From the IMG/VR virus record IMGVR_UViG_3300045988_153285, positions 1-64,000 of that record: 64,000 nt of DNA; one strand, written 5' to 3'. Position 1 is the first letter of the stretch. Each line of letters starts with the position of its first letter. The DNA comes from a virus. A program made the translations under genes and the position numbers. This document shows positions 14,118 to 28,456 of the stretch, piece by piece. Below the pieces are notes generated by a model. That model ran no database searches, had not been told where the DNA came from, and saw only the letters and a program-made list of their open reading frames with translations.

Positions 14118-14582
14118 TTATTTTGTAACAACGAAACCAAACATAGCGTGTCCTGCTACATTCATTTTTCCTAATGATTTAAGCCCAGTATCAGTCTCTT
14201 GAGTTGCTGTTCCTTTTAACTTACCGTTTTCGACAATTACATATTCACCTGCAGCTCCTTTGTTAGCTTCACCATCTATATCTGCAGATGCTAAACAATC
14301 AGTTGCAAATCTTTCTCCCTTATGTAAAACTCTTAATCCACAATATTCATCTTTTAATATTGTATCTTGTTCAGCATCCCAGTCTGATACAGGATATCCC
14401 ATTGCTACATCTTTAGTAACTTTTACGTCCCTAACAACTACCCCTACCATTTCATCTACAGAAGCAGCTTTCATTAATTTTCCTCCAGCAACTTTAACAA
14501 AATCTCCTCTCTTTAACTCTTCACCAGCTTGATATTGTGCGTCTACATTAACGCCTAAAATAGTTTGTAAATTTTTAATCAT
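14118..14582 (-). CDS. small head protein (decoration/DUF2190-like candidate)
   Basis: 154-aa beta-rich ORF between the scaffold and capsid genes. Confidence 0.35.
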   Translation of the reverse strand: MIKNLQTILGVNVDAQYQAGEELKRGDFVKVAGGKLMKAASVDEMVGVVVRDVKVTKDVAMGYPVSDWDAEQDTILKDEYCGLRVLHKGERFATDCLASADIDGEANKGAAGEYVIVENGKLKGTATQETDTGLKSLGKMNVAGHAMFGFVVTK

Positions 14583-14633
14583 ACTTATTTCCTCCTAAAT
14601 TATATTAATTTTTATTTTGGGTTCTTATCCCAA

Positions 14634-16103
14634 TTATCTTCTCTTACCAGGTTTTCTTATGAAATCTAAAATTGGATTACCAGATTCACCTGAATATTCA
14701 TAACTTGAAGATGAATTTAAATCTGTACTAACCTCAATTTCTTTTGTATTCTCTATTTTTTCTTCTGAAATTTCAGTTTTTGAAACATTTTTTAATACTG
14801 CTTCAGCAATAAATACTTTAACCTTACTCATATCTGCTTCTGCAATAGCTTGTTTAAGTTCTTCACTAGCCTCAATGTCTGCCTCGCTTATGTATCCACT
14901 AGATAACGCAGCTTGGCTACATTCTCTTCTCTTCTTTTCTAACTCTGCTACTGCTTTTTCTTTTTCGATTTCAGCAACAGTTTCTTTAAATACTTCTAAC
15001 TCCGCTATTGTCTTATCTTTTTCAGATAATAATGCTTCCTTTTCGGCTAAAGTTTCGCCTAATTTAACAATAGAATCAACCTTTTCTGATAATTCAGTTT
15101 TTACACCTTCTAATTCTGATACTTCAACAACACTTTCTTTAGGAACAAATGTCATTTTTACATTTTCTTTAGAAACTATTGAAACCTCATTATCTTCTCC
15201 TACTGAATAAACAACCTTTAAATAGTCATCTTCTAATTCATTAGCTCCTTCTTTTTTAAAGTAAGCTATATTTTCTAAAGGATATATAATACTATCATAT
15301 AACCAATAATCTTCTTCTTTTTCTAATTCCCATGCTAATTTACATACTTTTCTTCTAATGTCCCCTAAAGTCAAGGCAGAAACTTCTATATTTTCTTGCG
15401 AAACTTCTGTTTCTACAATTTCTTTATCCTTATCCATCTTATCTCCTCCTTCTTTAAAATTATTTATATCTTGCGCTATAGCACTTGATAACTCATCTTC
15501 AAAATTATCTTCTTTTTCTGCAACTTCTAATTCTTGCACCCCTGCACATTTAAAAGCAGGACTTACCCTACTTCCTAATAAGCAGTTTCCTATGAAATAG
15601 AAATCATCAATAACTTCGATTGTTTTTCCGTTTTCTATTTCATTATGACTTTGAGTGATAACCATTTCCCAACTACTCTTTATCGGATCACCTTTTTCAA
15701 ACCTATCAATTATAACTTTTTTTGCATTTTCAAATCTATTCCATAGAATAGCTTTTCCACAGATATATTCGACATTATCAATTTCTCGTATCTCACAATC
15801 TGTATAAACTCCTAATGCATCAGTATCTAAATAAGTTTTATTTATAACTTCACCATTAATTACTTCATACTTAGTTTTTTTATTGTGCCCCATAAAGTCG
15901 GTTTGGCCATTAACAGTCTTTAATCTTCCAACTAAAGGCATGTTTATCATAGTAGATATTTTGTCTTCTACTCCTTCTCTTTTAATTTTTTTACCATTAG
16001 CATTAGTAGAGAAGTCGCATAATATAAAATCTAATATTAAATTGCCTTTTACATCTTCTGATACTTCAATATTATTACTAGAAAATATGAAATTACTATC
16101 CAT
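14634..16103 (-). CDS. scaffolding protein, possibly with an N-terminal protease-like domain
   Basis: 489 aa. The C-half is highly charged coiled coil (EKEALLSEKDKTIAELE...). It lies between the portal and capsid genes. Confidence 0.45.
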   Translation of the reverse strand: MDSNFIFSSNNIEVSEDVKGNLILDFILCDFSTNANGKKIKREGVEDKISTMINMPLVGRLKTVNGQTDFMGHNKKTKYEVINGEVINKTYLDTDALGVYTDCEIREIDNVEYICGKAILWNRFENAKKVIIDRFEKGDPIKSSWEMVITQSHNEIENGKTIEVIDDFYFIGNCLLGSRVSPAFKCAGVQELEVAEKEDNFEDELSSAIAQDINNFKEGGDKMDKDKEIVETEVSQENIEVSALTLGDIRRKVCKLAWELEKEEDYWLYDSIIYPLENIAYFKKEGANELEDDYLKVVYSVGEDNEVSIVSKENVKMTFVPKESVVEVSELEGVKTELSEKVDSIVKLGETLAEKEALLSEKDKTIAELEVFKETVAEIEKEKAVAELEKKRRECSQAALSSGYISEADIEASEELKQAIAEADMSKVKVFIAEAVLKNVSKTEISEEKIENTKEIEVSTDLNSSSSYEYSGESGNPILDFIRKPGKRR

Positions 16104-20998: not shown

Positions 20999-21985
20999 TT
21001 ATTTTAAAACTATACACTTAATATCATTAATATCTATTTTCTTACCTTCTTCAAATTCTAAATATGTATAACCATAGTTTTGAGGATTGTAACCTAACTT
21101 TCCGCAATCAGCATAATCATGAGGTAAACACATGCAACTATTTTCTACAACATAAATACCTTGTCTTCTATTTACATTCATCCTGCTATGTTTATGTGTA
21201 TGTCCAAATATAATAACATCATCTACCTCAGCCATATGTCTATTTAAGAAATGTTCTGATACTTTTTCACACATTCTTCCATCAACTCCACTAAAATCTT
21301 TTGGATGACATACTATTAAATTATCAAAAAGCTTAACTTTCCAGTCGTTTATGTATTCAAAGTTAGGTATTGGTTCATACTTAAACTTTTTACCTTTATC
21401 ATAGTAAGTAAAACCATCTTGTATCATCTCTAATAAGTTGGGGTTTAACATCTTCTGAAGTTCTTTCTGTTGCATTTTTATAATATCTCTCGTATATCTT
21501 TCCTCATGATTTCCTCTGATACAAATTATCTTTGTCTTCTCTGGATTAATTATAGTATTTATTTTCTTTATAAATTGATGAGCTATAACTATTTCCTGGT
21601 CTACTGTAGGTCTATCCATAACATCAAAACTACTACACGATTCACAATCAATGATATCTCCAGCCAATATTAGATAATCAATATTTTTATGTTTTCTTAT
21701 TTCATCTAAAACATCATCTCTTTGATAAGGTAAATGTATATCATTCATTACCAAAACTTTAATCTTATCATTGTTTCGCAATTTTCTTTCATTATCATAA
21801 TCTAAGAACTCTTTTAGGCCATAAGAAACCTTTCTAAGATGATCTGCTGAACAGTCTAACCCTAATAATTCAACTATTTCTTCCCATGATTTATCTATTT
21901 CCTTATTTAATTTTGCATTACATAATCTTATTTTATATTCTTGGAAATTTTCATTTTCTCTTCTTAAATAATCTCTCATTCTCAT
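20999..21985 (-). CDS. calcineurin-like metallophosphoesterase
   Basis: Motifs MNDIH, AGDIID, GNHEE and GHTHKH occur in the canonical order. Confidence 0.8.
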   Translation of the reverse strand: MRMRDYLRRENENFQEYKIRLCNAKLNKEIDKSWEEIVELLGLDCSADHLRKVSYGLKEFLDYDNERKLRNNDKIKVLVMNDIHLPYQRDDVLDEIRKHKNIDYLILAGDIIDCESCSSFDVMDRPTVDQEIVIAHQFIKKINTIINPEKTKIICIRGNHEERYTRDIIKMQQKELQKMLNPNLLEMIQDGFTYYDKGKKFKYEPIPNFEYINDWKVKLFDNLIVCHPKDFSGVDGRMCEKVSEHFLNRHMAEVDDVIIFGHTHKHSRMNVNRRQGIYVVENSCMCLPHDYADCGKLGYNPQNYGYTYLEFEEGKKIDINDIKCIVLK

Positions 21986-21997
21986 CTCTCCACTTTG

Positions 21998-22150
21998 TTA
22001 ATTTACTATTATTTCAATTCCACAAATAGGGCAATATATAAATTTTATATCTCCTACTTTCTCAAAATTCCCTAATTCAATTTCTTCATCTACATTTATT
22101 TCTCCACATCTATTAGGACATTTTACCTTTTGAACTCTTTTCTTACCCAT
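21998..22150 (-). CDS. small zinc-ribbon protein (50 aa, below ORF-track cutoff)
   Basis: Hand translation gives MGKKRVQKVKCPNRCGE...YCPICGIEIIVN. Its stop lies inside a junction motif. Confidence 0.45.
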   Translation of the reverse strand: MGKKRVQKVKCPNRCGEINVDEEIELGNFEKVGDIKFIYCPICGIEIIVN

Positions 22151-22230
22151 ACTTTTATCTCTCCACAATCATTTATTTTTGTATTCATTATAAAGCTACC
22201 AATATTATCCCAACATGAGTAACTTTAGAT

Positions 22231-22264
22231 TAAATACAAAATACCCTATCAAATAGATAAGGTA
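22231..22264 (-). terminator. intrinsic terminator closing the large ORF-free segment
   Basis: 9-bp stem at 22242-22250/22256-22264 (one G-U pair) with a minus-strand tail UUUUGUAUUU. Confidence 0.55.
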
Positions 22265-23119
22265 TTAATATATTTATTACACACTCAACCCCGCTAAAAG
22301 TTAGTGTCATTTTTTTCGCCCAACCCGATCAAAAGTAAGCGTTTATTCATGTAAAAATCTTGCAAGACCTGATTAACCCACCAATCAGGAAGTATCCATG
22401 GTATTCCCCACGCCACTGCGAAATATTATCTTGCTTTTTTATTGTCACCACTCCACCTGATAACTAGGGTTGAGTTATTTAGGAACTAGAGTGTTCTCAA
22501 GACCATATCAGATTACTCAACACAACTAATATGACCTATATGTTTTTGTGCCTTAAAGACATAGCTACTAACAGGCTTAACATACAAACCTTTTTGCACC
22601 TATATATTCCCCCTAGTAGCAAGAGAAATATAATTATTGGCAAACCCCTATATGACCTTTATAGGAATTATTGTAGTCGTAGATTTTCAAAAACAGCTCT
22701 ACTTACGCTGAGTTGCACCTTGTGTCCGAGGTGTCTAACTTATGGACTACTCATAAAGAATAACTAGGTGGTTTTTATGTCAGTCGTTCAACAACTCGCT
22801 TTTATTAACGTCTCATAACCATAAAAGAGACAACTATATAAAATAGGTTTTTCTGTTGCCTACCAACGACGTGCAATTAAATCACGTAAATCTCAGTCCC
22901 TACACTCCACTATTTCGACCACGAATAGTTTCAAAGTGTTTTGAAATATTATCTTGCTGAGTGCTAGTAGCATAGACTTACCTTCAGATACAAGATAATA
23001 TCAATTCTGCATTCACTCCATTAGCAACTGCTACTCATCAACTAACTTCGAAGTGAACTATGGCTAATCGCCGTATTTATGTTTAGTCGAGTCATATGTA
23101 CCCGCTATTATATTAATTT
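22235..23119 (-). ncRNA. candidate large structured ncRNA (~0.9 kb), class unknown
   Basis: No credible ORF in six frames. Clearly G/C-richer than its flanks. Many local helices (22368-22389, 22646-22664, 22924-22941 and others). Internal 16-nt repeat GAAATATTATCTTGCT at 22421-22436 and 22943-22958. A terminator lies at the 3' end. Confidence 0.45.
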
Positions 23120-23311
23120 TTATTCTTCGCTTGGTAATTCTTCTGTTTTAGAAATTTGTAATGAAATTCCTTCAACACCTATAAATTCTTCCAGTTTTTC
23201 AGTTAAATTATAAACTTTAACTTCGTCTTTAGAAGTTTCTTCTATGGTAAAAACACCATCTTCACATGTTATACACGCATTCGTAAATTTATAATTAGTT
23301 GCTTTCTTCAT
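23120..23311 (-). CDS. small protein in the YonK position of SPbeta-like phages
   Basis: 63 aa, immediately downstream of the HU gene and the YonO-like gene. The assignment rests on synteny only. Confidence 0.4.
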   Translation of the reverse strand: MKKATNYKFTNACITCEDGVFTIEETSKDEVKVYNLTEKLEEFIGVEGISLQISKTEELPSEE

Positions 23312-23319
23312 AATATCAC

Positions 23320-23595
23320 CTACTCATTAACTATTTCTTTGATCTTACTTGATTGCTTATATGCAACTTTTTTACCTGCTTTTATAATAAGTTTCTCACC
23401 AGTAGCAGGATTATGTCCTTCTCTTTCTTTTGTTTCTTTTACTGATAATGTTCCGATTGTACCAAAAACTACTTTCCCATCTTCTAATAATCCTTCAACT
23501 ACAACTTCTTCTAAAGTTGCAATTAATTCCTTTGCTCTTTCTTGTGATACTCCTACCTTTGTTGCAAACTCTTTTCTCATTTCTGTTAAATTCAT
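23320..23595 (-). CDS. HU/IHF-family DNA-binding protein
   Basis: 91 aa. Contains GTLSVKETKEREGHNPATGEKLIIKAGKKVAYK, the typical HU arm. Confidence 0.9.
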   Translation of the reverse strand: MNLTEMRKEFATKVGVSQERAKELIATLEEVVVEGLLEDGKVVFGTIGTLSVKETKEREGHNPATGEKLIIKAGKKVAYKQSSKIKEIVNE

Positions 23596-23946
23596 TATTC
23601 TCTACTCCTTTGACTCTCTTTTATTTTATTAATTTTTGTTTATCTCACTTCCCTATAAGAAAGGACTGCTCAACCGTACGAACAGTCCAAAATATAAAAG
23701 GGAGATGAGAATTTATGAGATATGCCCCGAAGGGCTTGGTATATTAAAGTATTTCTACTATAAATATCTTGTAACAGGGGACTTAGATATTAGTGTCGAC
23801 TCGTCCCCTAAAAAATACTTGACTTTACAAAGTCTATTTGATAAGATATTATTGATATATTATACTCTTATCATTATATAGAATAAGAGCAATCTCGCAA
23901 TCCATTGATATTACTAGGTTTGCGAGGTGTTAAAAAACAAAAAACA
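23596..23946 (-). promoter_or_regulatory. long structured leader / intergenic RNA upstream of the HU gene
   Basis: Minus-strand helices include GCCC-UUCG-GGGC (23724-23735), AGGGGAC/GTCCCCT, GGACTG/CAGTCC and CTCGCAA/TTGCGAG. Possible TTGCGA-16-TATAAT promoter. A junction motif lies at 23624-23635. Confidence 0.4.
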
Positions 23947-26874
23947 CTATTTTACATGATTTATATCACATCTCTTAACCATAATATATTTATCTCCAAA
24001 TATGTTTATATCACCAAAATTATCTTTTGTTAATATAATTTCATTCTTATTATTTGAATTTTTAAACACTGATAATAATTTAACCTTATGAATACTATTG
24101 TATAATAATATCATAAGAAACATTCCAATCTTTGACCAATCCGATTCTCTTTTTGTTTCACCAAATGCTTTTTGAAGCATAGAATATATTGTTTTCGCAT
24201 TTATTTTAATATTGGAAATATCATTAATAGAAGATTCTCTTTTTCTTCTTAATATTGTTTCCTTGCTCTTAGATTTCATGTTTTTATTACTTCTAAGTCC
24301 ATTTATCGTGCTTGAGTATGATTTGCATATTTTATAGACAACTTCTTGGGGTTCTATCTTACTTCTATCTCCATCTAAGCTCTTAGCTTTTACCATTATG
24401 CCCCCAATAGATTTAGTTCCCCTAGGGTTTCTTGTCCTACATTCATCTAATATTTCTTCTAAATAATCCATAGGAGTATTAAATTTAATTGTATTTCTAT
24501 ATGTATTATCTTGAGCAACATATTCAAAGAATTTAGGAACTATCATTTTTTTAATTTTCTTTTGCTCTCCTTTCACATTTAATTTCGGAACTTTTATGAT
24601 TTCGCCAGTTTCAGAATCAACTTTCTCCTCAAACAAATATTCAATATCAAAATCTATAATTGTTTTACCTTTATATTTCATGTCATTTATATTTTTTAAT
24701 TCCTTTGTCATAGATATATTATCAAAAGATTTTTTAGCCTTATCTAGTTCTATTTGAGATAAACTAGATAACATTGATGATATATCATATAGCTTCTGAA
24801 TCAATTCCTCGTCCATTCCTTTTGATTTACAGTTCCACATATAACTATTTATTATTTGAGACTTATTTATTATCTTTCCTATAAAATTATTGCTTAAAAC
24901 ATCATCTAATTCGGCCAATTCATCAAGTGTATTATGTCTTATTTTACTATCGCCTTTAACCAAGTTTAATGGAGTTTTATACATTTGGCATTTCTCTGCA
25001 ACATCTACAAATGTCTTGTGGGGAATATGTAACAACGTATCAGAATCATAATCAAACCCCTGCCCTCTATCGGGAAAATCGTTGTCGCTAACATTTACAA
25101 TAGTTATGTTGTTACTAAAATTAAACCATTTATATTCATCATGCCATTTGTTTGTTGCCACCATTACATTACCTGAATTTATATGTGGATTTCTAAATGT
25201 GGCCAATTTTTGATTATCTTCATAGAATTTACAATATATTTCTGTCCCTTTAGCTAAACATATGTTATCATATTCCCCTATACTATGTAATAACATTTCA
25301 TAAGGATTTGCTACTATGGTTGAGTATATAGTGTTTTCTAATCTAATTTTCCCTTTTCTAAGTTCATTTATATAGCACTGTATTTGATTTAACCTAAACT
25401 TCTTAAATATTTTTGTATATTGGAAATCACTATTTATAGCTAAAATGTTATTTATCATTTCGCCAGTAGAATAATTATCATTATCTGATTTAAAAACTTC
25501 TTCATTACCCCAATCAATTTCTTCTATATCCTTCTCCAACTGTTCTGCTACTGCTTCTTTTATTGCTATATGATTTTTAAAATAAGCCAAATCAGTCTTT
25601 AATAATCTAACATATTCTAATTCGTGCCACATCAATTCTTTTATCTGTTCTTTTGTAAATGGCATACTGTTAATTATCTGATATGTTGTCCTATTCCAAG
25701 TTCCATAATTACCTTCTTTGTCACTTTTTACAATTCCGAATACATTATCTATATTGTTGAACCATTCTTCATAACACTCTTTATCGTCTTTGAATTTATA
25801 CTTAAATTTCAAAAATTTAATACTAGATGGCGTAGTTACCAATAATATATCTTTATAATCTATCCAACCTCTATACTTATCTTTTATCTTCCCGTCTTTT
25901 ATTTTTCCTTGACTATCCATATATGCAAAGAATTTTTGTAGTTTTGTATTAAATGCACAACATTTAAACATATCGCTTCTTAATAACATCATACCTTTTT
26001 TAGATCTATTTGCAATTTTGAATACAGACTCGTCCAACAACCCCTGTCCATCTGTCATATTATTAACTCTAGTTACCTTTTCATTCTTAGTCTGTAGTTT
26101 TCCATTTACTTCTCTTGTGACGCTTGATTCAACTTCAAACGGTAAACTATCTATGTCATCAATGAGCAATATTGACTTGGGTTCTATATGTATAATATCC
26201 TCGATTCCACTTAATACAAGAGATTGATAAGCATTTAATGATGTTATATCACACTGTTCTCCTTCATCTATAAATAAACCTTTCTTATTTTTGATTTCCT
26301 CTTTAGTCTTATTATGGAGTAACCTGCTTCTATTCATCATTTTTTTATACATTCCCTCTTTTATAAATAAACAAGATCCTGTCCTAGCTTTTGATGCACC
26401 TCTTTTATAGAATATGTATTTTTGACCATCAATAGTAAATCCATTAGTATAAAGGTATTTTCTCATACCCTTTCTGCTCTTTACTAAATATCTTTCTCTT
26501 ATGGGCTTACCTTCTTCATTTAATTTTATTTCTCCTGTTTCAGAATCTACTTTATCTCTCCACTGATTATAATTTTCATCAAAAGTAACATTAACTATTG
26601 CTTTTGTATATTGTTTTTTATTTTTTACGTAAATTTCTTTTGGATAATATTCATCCAGCCTTATCATTTCTAAGCTATACGGTATTGTTGCTGTAAACAG
26701 CCTATCATAAGAAATGTCTTTTGTTGAATAACATCCTTTTTTATTAATTATTAAGCCATCTTTATTTGCTATATCTTCTGTCATAGCTCTATATAAATAG
26801 CAAGCATCTATATTGTATATGTATGTATTCTCTTGTTTTTTAATAATATCCATCTCTTTATTTTCTAATTTCAT
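23947..26874 (-). CDS. YonO-like single-subunit two-barrel RNA polymerase (RdRP/QDE-1-related) candidate
   Basis: 975 aa. FRNPHINSGNV resembles the RNPxxHPGD element of RDR-type polymerases. GFDYDSD resembles the DxDGD metal site. Synteny with HU and a 63-aa gene matches SPbeta yonO-yonN-yonK. Confidence 0.55.
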   Translation of the reverse strand: MKLENKEMDIIKKQENTYIYNIDACYLYRAMTEDIANKDGLIINKKGCYSTKDISYDRLFTATIPYSLEMIRLDEYYPKEIYVKNKKQYTKAIVNVTFDENYNQWRDKVDSETGEIKLNEEGKPIRERYLVKSRKGMRKYLYTNGFTIDGQKYIFYKRGASKARTGSCLFIKEGMYKKMMNRSRLLHNKTKEEIKNKKGLFIDEGEQCDITSLNAYQSLVLSGIEDIIHIEPKSILLIDDIDSLPFEVESSVTREVNGKLQTKNEKVTRVNNMTDGQGLLDESVFKIANRSKKGMMLLRSDMFKCCAFNTKLQKFFAYMDSQGKIKDGKIKDKYRGWIDYKDILLVTTPSSIKFLKFKYKFKDDKECYEEWFNNIDNVFGIVKSDKEGNYGTWNRTTYQIINSMPFTKEQIKELMWHELEYVRLLKTDLAYFKNHIAIKEAVAEQLEKDIEEIDWGNEEVFKSDNDNYSTGEMINNILAINSDFQYTKIFKKFRLNQIQCYINELRKGKIRLENTIYSTIVANPYEMLLHSIGEYDNICLAKGTEIYCKFYEDNQKLATFRNPHINSGNVMVATNKWHDEYKWFNFSNNITIVNVSDNDFPDRGQGFDYDSDTLLHIPHKTFVDVAEKCQMYKTPLNLVKGDSKIRHNTLDELAELDDVLSNNFIGKIINKSQIINSYMWNCKSKGMDEELIQKLYDISSMLSSLSQIELDKAKKSFDNISMTKELKNINDMKYKGKTIIDFDIEYLFEEKVDSETGEIIKVPKLNVKGEQKKIKKMIVPKFFEYVAQDNTYRNTIKFNTPMDYLEEILDECRTRNPRGTKSIGGIMVKAKSLDGDRSKIEPQEVVYKICKSYSSTINGLRSNKNMKSKSKETILRRKRESSINDISNIKINAKTIYSMLQKAFGETKRESDWSKIGMFLMILLYNSIHKVKLLSVFKNSNNKNEIILTKDNFGDINIFGDKYIMVKRCDINHVK

Positions 26875-26916: not shown

Positions 26917-27087
26917 TTATTTATTAGTTATCTCAGTTAAATCTCTTAACAATGTATCATCTAATTTAAACACGAATACGCTCAACCATTTATTATTCCT
27001 ATTTGGTTCTGTCCATAATAGTTCATGTCCTTTTATAACTAACTCTAAAAATACTCTTTTGCTATAAATTTTTTTATACTTGACCAT
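26917..27087 (-). CDS. small DUF5659-like protein
   Basis: RBS AGGAGG lies 7 nt before the ATG at 27087. Similar in pattern to the 39880-40050 product. Confidence 0.4.
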   Translation of the reverse strand: MVKYKKIYSKRVFLELVIKGHELLWTEPNRNNKWLSVFVFKLDDTLLRDLTEITNK

Positions 27088-28456
27088 ATCTAATCCTCCT
27101 GATTTCATCACTTATTATAGTCGTTAATGTATCCTCCATTGTGGACTTACTTATGTTATATTTATTACCTTTAAACTCTATATAATTAGAATAAATTTTT
27201 ATATTATCAAATAAATTGCCCCCTTCTAATAATTCTATTGACTTTGATGGTATACATAATTCAGATTTAATATATACCTTTTTATCTTTTATCTTTTTTA
27301 TTTTGCAATTATATCTTGTAATTATTTTTAGGATATCTTTATAATACTCTTTAATATTGATTATATCTTCTATAACTTGCTTGTTTTTATCATACAATTT
27401 ATTTGCATTATATATAAAATCATCTATAGTTGATAAAATATCCTTCAGATTATTATCCTTAAAAGAAATATCAATATCTTTATTAAATCCATAATATTTT
27501 GAGTATTCACATCTTATTTTTTCTATTGTTCCCCGCCACATGTAATACGTTATGTCAAACCCTCTATACTTTTTTGAGAGTATCTTTATATCGTTATTTC
27601 TATATTTTAATACATACTTTAACTTGTTTGCATCTGTATTTAGTGGTGAATTTGTTTTTAAAAGAATATCTTTTAATTGAACTTCTTTTATTTCTATCAT
27701 TTTCAGTACCATCTTACTTGTTTGTGTCATTATCTTATTTCTATCACTTATTGTAGCTACATCTGTCGCCTTATACAAATATCCTGCTTTTGGATTATAG
27801 TATATCAATGGAGACTCAGAGTAATTTATTTCATCTTCTATAGATTTAACTCTTTTTCTTTCAAATGTTACCTTTTTATTGTTTTTCATATTTATGTATT
27901 TATCTATTTTCTCCTGAATCATATATGTCAAAACTCTATCTTTTTTAGATTCCAAGAGTCTCTTTTCTTTGTTTATTAAAGCATCTATTTCTTCTATATG
28001 GAAATTATCAAAACCTAATATCCATATATCGTTTATCCCCTCTAATTGATATAATTCATGTCTTTTATTATATTGCGTTGATATTGGACTGCATTGATAT
28101 TCTATACAATATCTCTCACCTTCATATTCAAAGTATATATCTGGTCTTTGTTTTGTATTTTTTATGTATTTTTCAACTTCTAAATTTCCAACACCTTTTA
28201 TCTCCTTCAACCTATTGTAAAGCATCTTAATTCCATTTATATGTTCCTCTGTCATAGGCTCATAATACTTATTTCCACTACATTCAGAGCCAATCTCATG
28301 TTTGAAATATGGTATCTTGTAATCACCCTTGCAATATATAACCCTTTCGTTACATTCTGGACATTTTAATATTTCTTTATTAGACCATTCTCTTAATTTA
28401 GCTTCATCATAATCAAAAGAATTAATTGATTTACTTCCTATTATACAACTTAGCAT
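27074..28456 (-). CDS. CoiA-like nuclease-family protein
   Basis: N-terminus reads CPECNERVIYCKG..PYFKHE followed by RPDIYFEYEGERYCIEYQCS (PD-(D/E)xK-like). Confidence 0.5.
   Translation of the reverse strand: MLSCIIGSKSINSFDYDEAKLREWSNKEILKCPECNERVIYCKGDYKIPYFKHEIGSECSGNKYYEPMTEEHINGIKMLYNRLKEIKGVGNLEVEKYIKNTKQRPDIYFEYEGERYCIEYQCSPISTQYNKRHELYQLEGINDIWILGFDNFHIEEIDALINKEKRLLESKKDRVLTYMIQEKIDKYINMKNNKKVTFERKRVKSIEDEINYSESPLIYYNPKAGYLYKATDVATISDRNKIMTQTSKMVLKMIEIKEVQLKDILLKTNSPLNTDANKLKYVLKYRNNDIKILSKKYRGFDITYYMWRGTIEKIRCEYSKYYGFNKDIDISFKDNNLKDILSTIDDFIYNANKLYDKNKQVIEDIINIKEYYKDILKIITRYNCKIKKIKDKKVYIKSELCIPSKSIELLEGGNLFDNIKIYSNYIEFKGNKYNISKSTMEDTLTTIISDEIRRIRYGQV

What the first reader, a model, noticed from the sequence alone, without database searches (positions are those of the whole stretch)
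22231..23119. ORF-free, G/C-enriched segment of about 0.9 kb in the late operon, a candidate large structured RNA
No frame stays open between the 63-aa gene and the zinc-ribbon gene. Base composition shifts visibly toward G/C. Local helices are numerous (CCTGATT/AATCAGG at 22368-22389, CCTATA/TATAGG at 22646-22664, TTTCAAA/TTTGAAA at 22924-22941, ACGTG/CACGT at 22869-22887). A 16-nt internal repeat GAAATATTATCTTGCT occurs at 22421 and 22943. The unit ends in a good minus-strand terminator (22231-22264). Large ornate RNAs such as GOLLD and ROOL are known to reside in Firmicutes prophages. I cannot tell from memory whether this matches either, and it may be a new class.
Basis: partly seen in the sequence, partly recalled or inferred. 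Interest (0 to 1): 0.7.

Follow-up and report, generated by a model that had tools for sequence, protein, structure and literature searches.

The report
Mosaic structured-RNA island in prophage late operon
The 0.97-kb gene-free stretch is real and carries several folded non-coding RNA modules that match no catalogued RNA family, in a slot of an SPbeta-like Clostridium prophage where related phages carry tRNAs or the orphan skipping-rope, drum and DUF3800-VIII RNAs.

Summary
Window 22151-23119 has no conserved ORF. Its GC is 0.35 against 0.27-0.29 in the flanks. It ends in a minus-strand terminator. It lies between a YonK-like gene and a zinc-ribbon gene, downstream of a YonO-like RNA polymerase gene and an HU gene, so this is an SPbeta-type late region.

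No Rfam 15 family matches it, including GOLLD, ROOL and the introns, and it has no tRNA.

About 45 related loci show that the gap is a mosaic of modules: M1, M2 and M3a/b/c. These are gained, lost and shuffled while the flanking genes stay 94-100% identical.

Compensatory base changes and G:U pairs support RNA helices on the gene-sense (minus) strand. Support is strong for M3b, good for M1 and modest for M2. M3a and M3c are almost invariant, so they could not be tested.

The same slot holds tRNA-Ser or tRNA-Trp in relatives, skipping-rope RNA in a sister lineage, drum RNA in phage D-1873, and DUF3800-VIII RNA in SPbeta's 1.7-kb yonN-yonK gap.

Best reading: an island of independently folding accessory RNAs co-transcribed with the late operon. 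Its function is unknown. It is not one GOLLD-like RNA.

The parts
22151..23119 (-). Whole non-coding island (969 nt). Positions are given below as p = 23120 minus the window coordinate, counted along the sense (minus) strand.
   Evidence: No conserved ORF. GC 0.349 against 0.27-0.29 in the flanks. No Rfam match and no tRNA. Mosaic homology to the gaps of related loci.
22944..23119 (-). Module M0+M1 (p1-176). Contains leader hairpin H1 (23083-23108), hairpin H2 (23062-23072), branched hairpin H3 (23011-23058) and long hairpin H4 (22946-23001).
   Evidence: Alignment A7: 49 predicted pairs, 6 with compensatory changes, and most other changes pass through G:U. H1 is CGGGU/ACUCG, changing to CGAGU/AUUCG and CGGAU/AUCCG. 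H2 is GGC/GCC, changing to GCC/GGC in L032. H1 is present in every gap architecture. Consensus fold: sense -22.5, antisense -5.5 kcal/mol.
22896..22943 (-). Linker (p177-224) with two small hairpins, including TTTCAAA/TTTGAAA at 22924-22941. In L003, L008 and L033 a further module X of about 200 nt is inserted at this point.
   Evidence: Homology breakpoints at p176 and p225. A different stem surrounds a similar loop in L007-type loci. z = -2.6.
22641..22895 (-). Module M2 (p225-479). A domain closed by AGAUUU/AAAUCU (22888-22893 with 22681-22686), holding about 7 internal hairpins (including ACGUG/CACGU at 22869-22887), followed by a separate 10-bp terminal hairpin (22643-22669).
   Evidence: Alignment A8 with a structure I named by hand: 98.7% of cells paired against 30-41% when partners are slid. 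5 pairs changed on both sides against 0-1 in the slid controls. 0 of 500 shuffles reach the observed value. Weak points: the module is mostly invariant, MFE z is only -0.3, and sense and antisense consensus energies are equal.
22541..22640 (-). Module M3a (p480-579). Predicted hairpin closed by GCUACUA/UAGUAGC.
   Evidence: Found only in window-type loci and nearly invariant, so covariation cannot be tested. Sense z = -2.3, antisense 0.06.
22399..22540 (-). Module M3b (p580-721). Helix Ha pairs 22526-22537 with 22500-22511. Hb pairs 22493-22496 with 22483-22486. Hc pairs 22458-22464 with 22444-22450 and has the conserved loop GGUGGAG. Hd pairs 22413-22417 with 22397-22401 (two bases into M3c) and has the conserved loop CGUGGGGAAUA. 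A possible pseudoknot pairs CCCUA (22465-22469) with UGGGG (22406-22410).
   Evidence: Three lineages (window-type, L014-type at 75% identity, L045). 96.8% of cells paired against 35-49% slid. 12 of 40 pairs changed on both sides. Covariation score 0.31 against at most 0.074. Consensus fold: sense -29.6, antisense -16.2 kcal/mol.
22231..22398 (-). Module M3c (p722-889). Contains hairpin CCUGAUU/AAUCAGG (22368-22389), further predicted stems, and an intrinsic-terminator-like hairpin at 22240-22266 with a U-rich tail reaching about 22231.
   Evidence: The first hairpin covaries in L045. Terminator scan. In the terminator stem a U:G pair becomes U:A in L033, L035 and L036. z = -3.2. The rest is nearly invariant, so untested.
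22151..22230 (-). Spacer between the terminator and the zinc-ribbon gene, carrying the ribosome-binding site (GGAGAG).
   Evidence: Read directly from the sequence. The last 23-28 nt are shared with loci that carry other cassettes.
22420..22435 (-). Copy 1 of the 16-nt repeat (sense strand AGCAAGAUAAUAUUUC), lying in a variable segment of M3b.
   Evidence: By inspection it can pair with GAUAUGGUCUUG inside M3b, or with the 5' arm of H4.
22943..22958 (-). Copy 2 of the 16-nt repeat, which forms the 3' arm of hairpin H4 at the end of M1. A homology breakpoint falls here.
23120..23311 (-). YonK-like gene (63 aa), immediately upstream of the island.
   Evidence: Relatives carry precomputed PF09642 hits. 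The direct scan scores 16.1 bits, below the cutoff of 25. phrog_8651.
23320..23595 (-). HU-type DNA-binding protein gene, in the position of yonN.
   Evidence: PF00216, E = 2.7e-19.
23947..26874 (-). Putative YonO-like single-chain RNA polymerase gene (975 aa).
   Evidence: phrog_8308. Contains a GFDYDSD motif. 28% identity over 152 aa to the 906-aa proteins at the same position that carry PF05183 hits. The assignment is an inference; there is no direct Pfam hit.
21998..22150 (-). Zinc-ribbon gene (50 aa from the ATG at 22150), immediately downstream of the island.
   Evidence: It is 94-100% conserved in loci whose RNA cassettes differ.
20999..21985 (-). YonJ-like metallophosphoesterase gene. 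It is followed by YonG-like, large terminase and portal genes.
   Evidence: PF00149. Relatives carry YonJ_N and YonG_N hits.

Best explanation
Window 22151-23119 is an island of non-coding RNA read from the minus strand, the same strand as the neighbouring genes. It is a string of independently folding modules: M1 (about 175 nt), M2 (about 255 nt), and M3a/b/c (about 410 nt, ending in an intrinsic-terminator hairpin).

It sits near the head of the late operon of an SPbeta-like Clostridium prophage, in the order YonO-like RNA polymerase, HU, YonK, island, zinc-ribbon gene, YonJ-like gene, terminase. The modules belong to no Rfam family.

The slot behaves as a cassette site. In otherwise nearly identical phages it holds different combinations of these modules, tRNA-Ser, tRNA-Trp, a tRNA-like element or skipping-rope RNA. 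In more distant SPbeta-type phages the equivalent gap holds drum RNA or DUF3800-VIII RNA.

**Shown:** absence of coding potential, the mosaic structure, RNA-type covariation on the sense strand, and equivalence of the slot to that of known orphan RNAs.

**Inferred:**
- The island is transcribed with yonK as part of the late transcript made by the phage polymerase, as reported for SPbeta.
- The modules are released or stabilised as separate folded RNAs, with the terminator hairpin as a 3' end or protective structure.
- They act in trans as exchangeable accessory cargo, serving host takeover or counter-defence in the way phage tRNAs do, rather than as a fixed cis-regulator.
For: **Non-coding.**
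- No conserved ORF.
- Length differences between homologues are not multiples of three: 479 against 474 and 469 nt.

**Structure and strand.**
- M3b: 96.8% of cells paired, 12 pairs changed on both sides, covariation score 0.31 against at most 0.074 in slid controls.
- M1: 6 compensatory pairs, and many changes pass through G:U.
- M2: 5 pairs changed on both sides against 0-1 in controls.
- Module X hairpin: CUUCGC/GCGAAG against CCCGAC/GUUGGG.
- Sense-strand consensus folds are much better than antisense for M1 and M3b.

**Modularity.**
- Breakpoints fall at p47/59, 176, 225, 360, 479 and 580-721.
- Gaps range from 268 to 1264 nt between flanks that are 94-100% identical.
- Sub-modules are reordered in L045.
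- All supported helices are local.

**Same slot in other phages.**
- tRNA-Ser or tRNA-Trp and a tRNA-like element.
- Skipping-rope RNA 12-14 nt after the yonK stop in six sister loci, 51-56 bits against a gathering score of 36.7.
- Drum RNA in D-1873.
- DUF3800-VIII RNA in SPbeta's 1681-nt yonN-yonK gap, which is also GC-enriched.

**Transcription.**
- There is a terminator at the island's 3' end.
Against: - There are no expression data, so the transcript, its ends and any processing are all inferred.
- M3a and most of M3c are almost invariant among the available loci, so nearly half of the island has no covariation test.
- M2 and M3b fold no better than shuffled sequence by free energy, and M2 shows no strand preference.
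- The covariation rests on few independent lineages: two or three for M3b, and mostly close relatives for M1 and M2.
- The structures tested were derived from the window sequence, which favours them over the slid controls.
- The YonO assignment of the 975-aa protein is indirect.
- The YonK family hit is below Pfam's cutoff in the direct scan.
- A trans-acting accessory role is an argument from variability and neighbours, not from any target.
Confidence: 0.6

Rival explanations
1. One large ornate RNA of about 0.9 kb that folds and acts as a single unit, like GOLLD or ROOL, with variable peripheral domains.
For: - Its length, GC enrichment, prophage setting and the tRNAs in the same slot of relatives match the habitat of GOLLD and ROOL (PMC12286853; PMC5737381).
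- There is a single terminator at the 3' end and no terminator-like site on the sense strand inside the island.
- The 16-nt repeat could pair M3b with the 5' arm of H4 in M1.
- The loop AGGUGG in M3b is complementary to CCACCU in M2 (by inspection).
Against: - No Rfam match to GOLLD, ROOL or any other large RNA, even at E up to 10.
- No core is shared by all gap architectures apart from a 40-nt hairpin.
- M1, M2 and M3 occur without one another (L009, L011, L012, L014, L045).
- No conserved long-range helix was found.
- M3 is near-identical where M1 and M2 diverge, so they have separate histories.
Confidence: 0.15
2. A cis-acting leader or intercistronic element of the late operon. Its folded RNA would control read-through at the terminator, processing, stability or translation of the zinc-ribbon, YonJ-like and terminase genes downstream.
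For: - It lies inside an operon, on the same strand, with a terminator-like hairpin about 90 nt before the next start codon.
- The leader hairpin H1 and the last 23-28 nt before the zinc-ribbon gene are kept in nearly all architectures.
- In SPbeta the non-coding RNA lies at the very start of the YonO transcript.
Against: - The downstream zinc-ribbon gene is 94-100% identical in loci whose RNA content is entirely different. Those contents include tRNAs, skipping-rope RNA and a minimal 268-nt gap. The bulk of the island is therefore not needed in cis.
- tRNAs, skipping-rope and drum are free-standing RNA genes rather than leaders (PMC5737381).
Confidence: 0.15
3. Not a functional RNA. The segment would be DNA-level signals (packaging site, replication or recombination sites, hairpin promoters for the phage polymerase) or the decayed remains of inserted genes and mobile elements.
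For: - It lies just upstream of the packaging genes.
- There is heavy recombination and reshuffling at short shared motifs.
- Some relatives have protein genes inserted in the same slot (168-, 196- and 289-aa ORFs).
- The promoter recognised by YonO is unknown.
Against: - Compensatory changes keep many distinct helices, with frequent G:U pairs that would be A:C mismatches on the other strand.
- There is a clear sense-strand advantage.
- Loops are conserved while stems vary (GGUGGAG, CGUGGGGAAUA).
- No ORF remnants are conserved.
- Bona fide RNA genes occupy the same slot.
Confidence: 0.07

Closest known systems
Skipping-rope RNA (Rfam RF02924), an orphan structured sRNA motif from Weinberg et al. 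2017
   Same: It occupies the same genomic position. In six sister-lineage loci, whose YonK is 87% identical to the window's, it starts 12-14 nt after the yonK stop on the gene strand, where M0/M1 starts in the window. In L026 the gap that begins with it also ends in a terminator-like hairpin. Both contain the heptamer UGGAGUG. Its function is unknown as well.
   Different: The covariance model finds nothing in the window, even at E up to 10. Skipping-rope is one hairpin of about 80 nt. The window's island is 969 nt with at least three larger modules.
SPbeta yonN-yonK non-coding region (the 'unannotated non-coding RNA' at the start of the YonO late operon), which contains a DUF3800-VIII RNA (RF03075)
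   Same: The gene neighbourhood is the same: YonO, HU/YonN, YonK, YonJ, YonG, terminase. Both are kilobase-scale gaps free of annotated genes, GC-enriched (0.416 against 0.35 in SPbeta) and on the sense strand. The SPbeta region is reported to be transcribed by the phage polymerase (PMC5467207).
   Different: In SPbeta the gap lies upstream of yonK; here it lies downstream. There is no detectable sequence similarity, no DUF3800-VIII match in the window, and no copy of the M3b domain in SPbeta.
GOLLD (RF01998) and ROOL (RF03087), large ornate phage and prophage RNAs
   Same: Large GC-enriched non-coding RNA in a Firmicute prophage, with tRNAs in the same neighbourhood in relatives. GOLLD expression is reported to rise during phage-induced lysis, and this island lies in a late operon (PMC12286853; PMC5737381).
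   Different: There is no model match and no universal conserved core. The architecture is a string of local modules, not multi-junction folds with conserved pseudoknots. Modules are gained and lost independently.
Drum RNA (RF02958) in Clostridium phage D-1873
   Same: It lies in a 1.2-kb gene-free gap between an HU gene and a YonJ-like phosphoesterase gene, next to phage tRNAs, in the closest catalogued phage.
   Different: There is no sequence or model similarity to the window's island.
Phage tRNA islands
   Same: tRNA-Ser(GCU), tRNA-Trp(CCA) and a tRNA-like element are alternative occupants of this very slot, on the same strand. Content varies between near-identical phages.
   Different: The window's copy has no tRNA or tRNA-like fold by ARAGORN or by the Rfam tRNA model.

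Membership tests
GOLLD RNA (RF01998) | Match to the family covariance model, which captures the universally conserved 3' region | tested here: not met
   No match at the gathering score over the whole window, and none at E up to 10 over 22000-23400.
GOLLD RNA (RF01998) | Phage or prophage location, often next to tRNAs | tested here: met
   The locus is a prophage late region. Relatives carry tRNA-Ser or tRNA-Trp in the same gap. The window's own copy has no tRNA. This is context only and does not define the family.
ROOL RNA (RF03087) | Match to the family covariance model (six multistem junctions, three pseudoknots) | tested here: not met
   no match.
Skipping-rope RNA (RF02924) | Match to the family covariance model | tested here: not met
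   No match in the window. The model scores 51-56 bits at the equivalent position in L025-L029 and L031.
Drum RNA (RF02958) and DUF3800 RNAs (including RF03075) | Match to the family covariance model | tested here: not met
   No match in the window. The models do match D-1873 (47.7 bits) and SPbeta (47.5 bits).
Drum RNA (RF02958) and DUF3800 RNAs (including RF03075) | A DUF3800-domain gene, or its associated genes, nearby | tested here: inconclusive
   None of about 23 window phage-region proteins and 6 proteins from related loci scanned has a DUF3800 hit. Not every ORF of the window was scanned.
tRNA or tRNA-like element | Cloverleaf, or acceptor stem plus T arm, detected by ARAGORN or by Rfam RF00005 | tested here: not met
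   No tRNA in the window, and no RF00005 match at E up to 10 in the gap.
Group I or group II intron, or a self-cleaving ribozyme | Match to an Rfam intron or ribozyme model | tested here: not met
   none. No interrupted host gene is evident either.
Protein-coding gene (missed or degraded) | An open frame kept across homologues, with an excess of synonymous changes and indels in multiples of three | tested here: not met
   All ORFs of 26-78 aa are frameshifted or broken in relatives, or show far more non-synonymous than synonymous changes. Module length differences are 5 and 10 nt.
Structured non-coding RNA (generic) | Helices kept through compensatory and G:U changes, with an advantage for one strand | tested here: met
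   M3b, M1, M2 and strand comparison. Not testable for M3a and most of M3c, which are invariant.
Structured non-coding RNA (generic) | A stable transcript with defined ends | not testable with these tools
   No expression data are available. The only support is the terminator-like 3' hairpin and the SPbeta precedent.
SPbeta-type late region transcribed by a YonO-type polymerase | Gene order YonO, HU/YonN, YonK, YonJ, YonG, terminase | tested here: met
   compared with SPBc2. The YonO identity of the 975-aa protein is indirect, and the YonK hit is below Pfam's cutoff in the direct scan.

The most novel reading that the evidence does not exclude
The yonK-adjacent slot of SPbeta-like phages is a hypervariable RNA cargo island, the RNA counterpart of the protein anti-defence islands of phages. 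In it tRNAs, skipping-rope, drum, DUF3800-type RNAs and the new modules M1-M3 are interchangeable answers to one selective problem. That problem could be, for example, neutralising host RNA-targeting or tRNA-targeting defences, or toxins that are normally held in check by such RNAs. The phage's own YonO-type polymerase would express them massively at the start of late transcription. If so, M1-M3 are new classes of counter-defence RNA. The orphan motifs described in 2017 would also gain their first functional setting, and in SPbeta, a phage that can be manipulated genetically.
Probability: 0.2. Interest if true: 0.85.

Novelty: new member of a known kind. Interest (0 to 1): 0.6.

Why it matters
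**New RNA families.** Structured phage RNAs of unknown function (GOLLD, ROOL, drum, skipping-rope, the DUF3800 motifs) are a long-standing puzzle. This locus adds several folded modules that belong to no family, in a phage that is common in public metagenomes. The identical YonK protein is found on 212 contigs. The identical zinc-ribbon protein is indexed in 338 blocks of the collection.

**A common habitat for known orphan RNAs.** Three of the orphan motifs, phage tRNAs and the new modules all turn out to occupy one conserved slot. That slot lies beside yonK, at the head of the late operon. In SPbeta that operon is transcribed by the unusual single-chain polymerase YonO.

**Testable questions.** Are these RNAs made by the phage polymerase? 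Are they processed into separate species? What happens to phage yield, or to escape from host defence, when cassettes are deleted or swapped? SPbeta in Bacillus subtilis is a workable model for the equivalent 1.7-kb region.

Tried and rejected
- **Rfam.** No match at gathering scores over the whole window, and only chance-level matches at E up to 10 over the gap. GOLLD, ROOL, introns, ribozymes, riboswitches and tRNA are rejected as identities.
- **ARAGORN.** No tRNA or tmRNA in the window.
- **DNA similarity.** blastn of the gap against catalogued phages and plasmids found nothing.
- **Protein similarity.** tblastn of YonK against phages found nothing. The YonO-like protein has only distant hits there.
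- **IMG/VR viral contigs.** Three scans found no relative, using the YonJ-like protein, an M1 22-mer and a YonK alignment. This phage group seems absent from that collection.
- **D-1873 gap.** No similarity to the window's gap by blastn or nhmmer.
- **Covariance model of the M3b 3' domain.** No hidden copy in SPbeta, D-1873, L024, L026 or L032.
- **nhmmer of each module against the window.** No second copy.
- **Hidden gene.** Rejected.
- **PDB and Pfam searches of the 975-aa protein.** Nothing direct.
- **DUF3800 protein next to the island.** None among the proteins scanned.
- **Literature.** No functional work on skipping-rope, drum or DUF3800 RNAs, and nothing on yonK-linked RNA apart from the YonO paper.
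- **Supplement of Weinberg et al. 2017.** It discusses the genes linked to drum and skipping-rope, but it is not held as text.
- **Loop complementarities.** I considered AGGUGG with CCACCU, and the 16-nt repeat with H4, as tertiary contacts. I had too little sequence variation to test either.
Full report
**1. The observation**

The stretch between the 63-aa gene (23120-23311) and the zinc-ribbon gene (ATG at 22150) is 969 nt, and all neighbouring genes lie on the minus strand. The longest ORFs inside it are 40 aa on the sense strand and 78 aa on the antisense strand.

GC is 0.349, against 0.288 and 0.269 in the phage DNA on either side. The 16-nt repeat is exact at 22420-22435 and 22943-22958. 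A terminator-like hairpin with a U-rich tail lies at 22266-22240 on the minus strand.

The whole segment folds better than shuffled sequence: z = -3.2 on the sense strand and -2.2 on the antisense strand.

**2. The setting**

Upstream lie an HU-type gene (PF00216) and a 975-aa gene (phrog_8308). Downstream lie a metallophosphoesterase, a phrog_3314 protein, the large terminase and the portal.

Relatives of these proteins carry Pfam hits to YonK, YonJ_N/YonJ_CC, YonG_N/C and, for the large upstream protein, PF05183.

The window's 975-aa protein has no direct Pfam hit. It contains a GFDYDSD motif and shares 28% identity over 152 aa with the forms that carry PF05183 hits. I therefore treat it as YonO-like by inference.

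The gene order matches Bacillus phage SPbeta: yonO, yonN (HU), yonK, yonJ, yonG, yonF.

[quoted passage not shown] **3. Known families**

Rfam 15 gives no match at gathering scores anywhere in the window. Over the gap it gives only chance-level matches at E up to 10. ARAGORN finds no tRNA. The segment is therefore not GOLLD, ROOL, an intron, a ribozyme, a riboswitch or a tRNA. Catalogued phages and plasmids hold no similar DNA.

**4. Relatives show a mosaic**

Related loci came from four sources:
- a Clostridium cuniculi genome (L003);
- look-ups of the exact YonK and zinc-ribbon proteins and of YonK homologues;
- one metagenome pattern scan;
- annotated regions of catalogued phages.

Together they gave 51 loci, about 45 of which are related YonK-type loci.

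With p = 23120 minus the window coordinate, the window's gap divides into these parts:

| Part | Position (p) |
|---|---|
| M0+M1 | 1-176 |
| Linker | 177-224 |
| M2 | 225-479 |
| M3a | 480-579 |
| M3b | 580-721 |
| M3c, with the terminator | 722-889 |
| Spacer | 890-969 |

The modules occur independently of one another:
- All architectures share only the first 38-47 nt, which hold hairpin H1.
- L009 has a 268-nt gap with none of M1-M3.
- L011 has M2 without M1.
- L012 has M1, part of M2 and tRNA-Ser.
- L014-type loci have a tRNA-like element and M3b, but neither M1 nor M2.
- L033 adds a 145-nt insert and a 200-nt module X, which brings its gap to 1264 nt.
- In L045 sub-modules are reordered: the 3' half of M3b, then the 3' half of M2, then a hairpin from the 5' half of M2.

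Meanwhile the flanks stay about 94-100% identical. The zinc-ribbon protein is 94-100% identical across loci with very different RNA content.

M3 is almost invariant among window-type loci, while M1 and M2 differ at about 135 sites. The modules therefore have separate histories.

**5. Not coding**

Every ORF of 26 aa or more in the gap, on either strand, fails in relatives. It is frameshifted, interrupted, or carries far more non-synonymous than synonymous changes. Module lengths differ by 5 and 10 nt between homologues.

**6. RNA structure**

*M3b.* Three lineages are available: window-type, L014-type at 75% identity, and L045. For a six-helix model, 96.8% of cells form standard pairs, against 35-49% when partners are slid. 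Twelve of 40 pairs change on both sides. The covariation score is 0.31 against at most 0.074 (RNAalifold gives a similar picture).

One stem exists in three versions around the conserved loop GGUGGAG: GUUAUCA/UGGUGAC, ACAACUA/UAGUUGU and ACUAUCA/UGAUAGU. A second hairpin keeps the loop CGUGGGGAAUA.

*M1.* There are 49 predicted pairs, 6 of them compensatory, and most single changes pass through G:U.

*M2.* There are 53 pairs in ten helices and 98.7% of cells are paired. Five pairs change on both sides against 0-1 in the controls.

*Module X.* This module is absent from the window. One six-pair stem shows four paired changes between L033 and L003.

*Strand.* Consensus folding favours the sense strand for M3b (-29.6 against -16.2 kcal/mol) and for M1 (-22.5 against -5.5). 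It does not for M2.

*Caveats.*
- Few independent lineages are available.
- The tested structures were derived from the window sequence.
- M2 and M3b are not thermodynamically unusual.
- M3a and most of M3c cannot be tested because they do not vary.

**7. What else lives in this slot**

- Relatives carry tRNA-Ser(GCU) (L003, L007, L012, L019) or tRNA-Trp(CCA) (L010) at the 3' end of the gap, on the gene strand.
- L014 carries a tRNA-like acceptor stem plus T arm.
- In the sister lineage, whose YonK is 87% identical, six loci carry a skipping-rope RNA (RF02924). It scores 51-56 bits against a gathering score of 36.7 and starts 12-14 nt after the yonK stop.
- Clostridium phage D-1873 is the closest catalogued phage by the YonJ-like protein. 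It has a 1.2-kb gene-free gap with a drum RNA (RF02958) and two tRNAs nearby.
- SPbeta has a 1681-nt unannotated gap between yonN and yonK. Its GC is 0.416 against 0.35 in the flanks, and it contains a DUF3800-VIII RNA (RF03075, 47.5 bits) on the sense strand.

Drum, skipping-rope and the DUF3800 motifs were described together as orphan structured RNAs. Many of them have 3' terminators, and their function is unknown (PMC5737381). I found no later functional work.

**8. Interpretation**

The most economical reading is an RNA cassette island. It is a fixed slot beside yonK near the head of the late operon, filled in each phage by a different set of independently folding RNAs. The window's set (M1, M2, M3) is new at family level.

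Several steps are inferred and not shown:
- transcription by the phage polymerase as part of the late transcript;
- processing into separate species;
- a trans-acting accessory role, such as host takeover or counter-defence, as proposed for phage tRNAs.

The rivals are:
- a single GOLLD-like RNA, which is disfavoured by the modular gain and loss and by the lack of a core;
- a cis-acting leader, which is disfavoured because the downstream gene is unchanged while the RNA content varies completely;
- DNA-level signals or decayed genes, which are disfavoured by strand-specific covariation with G:U pairs.

**9. Novelty and interest**

The kind is known: phage-borne structured RNAs of unknown function that keep company with tRNAs. 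The modules themselves are new families.

The link between this slot, three orphan Rfam motifs and the YonO late operon appears not to have been drawn in the literature I could search. The phage is common in metagenomes: the identical YonK protein is on 212 contigs.

I rate the finding moderately high. The structure evidence is real, but function and expression are untested.

Noticed in passing
L025 3205-3286, L026 303-384, L027 1521-1603, L028 1508-1590, L029 1238-1319, L031 981-1060: Skipping-rope RNA (RF02924, 51-56 bits) sits 12-14 nt after the yonK stop in a sister phage lineage. This ties an orphan Rfam motif to a defined phage gene context.
   Followed up: partly
L051 (SPBc2 NC_001884) 14154-15834; Rfam hit at 14410-14475, minus strand: SPbeta has a 1681-nt unannotated, GC-enriched gap between yonN and yonK. 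It contains a DUF3800-VIII RNA match (47.5 bits, gathering score 40.2). It is probably the 'unannotated non-coding RNA' mentioned in the YonO paper.
   Followed up: partly
L001 (Clostridium phage D-1873) 2103-2192, 2213-2284 and 3736-3843: A drum RNA lies in a 1.2-kb gene-free gap, with two tRNAs upstream. One of the tRNAs has a 20-nt insertion in the anticodon region and is not annotated in the record.
   Followed up: no
window 23596-23746 (minus strand), within the 351-nt gap 23596-23946: The last 150 nt or so before the HU gene are conserved in every locus, whatever gene lies upstream. They hold a GCCC-UUCG-GGGC hairpin and a terminator-like hairpin at 23688-23663. This is a candidate late-promoter or regulatory region.
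   Followed up: partly
window 22449-22455, 22903-22909, 23014-23020 (minus strand): The heptamer TGGAGTG occurs 4 times in the 64-kb window. Three of them lie in the 969-nt island on the sense strand, one in the conserved M3b loop. It also occurs once in each skipping-rope copy of L025, L026, L029 and L031. Its meaning is unknown.
   Followed up: partly
L014 3264-3328 (also L015-L023 and L048): A tRNA-like element with an acceptor stem, a T arm and a CCA end but no normal D or anticodon arms (25.8 bits, below the tRNA gathering score) lies in the same slot.
   Followed up: no
window 23947-26874, compared with L010 and L014-L023 at 1-1640: The polymerase-like gene upstream of HU is itself swapped between phages. 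The 975-aa form and the 906/931-aa forms share only 28% identity over 152 aa, yet the HU and YonK genes that follow are nearly identical.
   Followed up: partly
L045 342-956: Pieces of M3b and M2 occur in a different order here than in the window: the 3' half of M3b, the 3' half of M2, then a hairpin from the 5' half of M2. Reshuffling therefore reaches below the level of whole modules.
   Followed up: partly
L025 3001-3620: The contig is a perfect inverted duplication around the skipping-rope RNA, with yonK and its neighbours present twice, head to head. This is probably an assembly artefact.
   Followed up: no
window 27074-28456 (minus strand): A CoiA-like nuclease-domain gene (PF06054 and PF25164) lies just upstream of the polymerase-like gene in the prophage.
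   Followed up: no
L008 4052-4921, L009 3461-4330, L011 3903-4772; L024 3224-3730; L032 3375-3965: Some relatives have protein genes of unknown family (289, 168 and 196 aa, no Pfam hit) inserted in or next to the RNA slot. The slot therefore also accepts protein-coding cargo.
   Followed up: no
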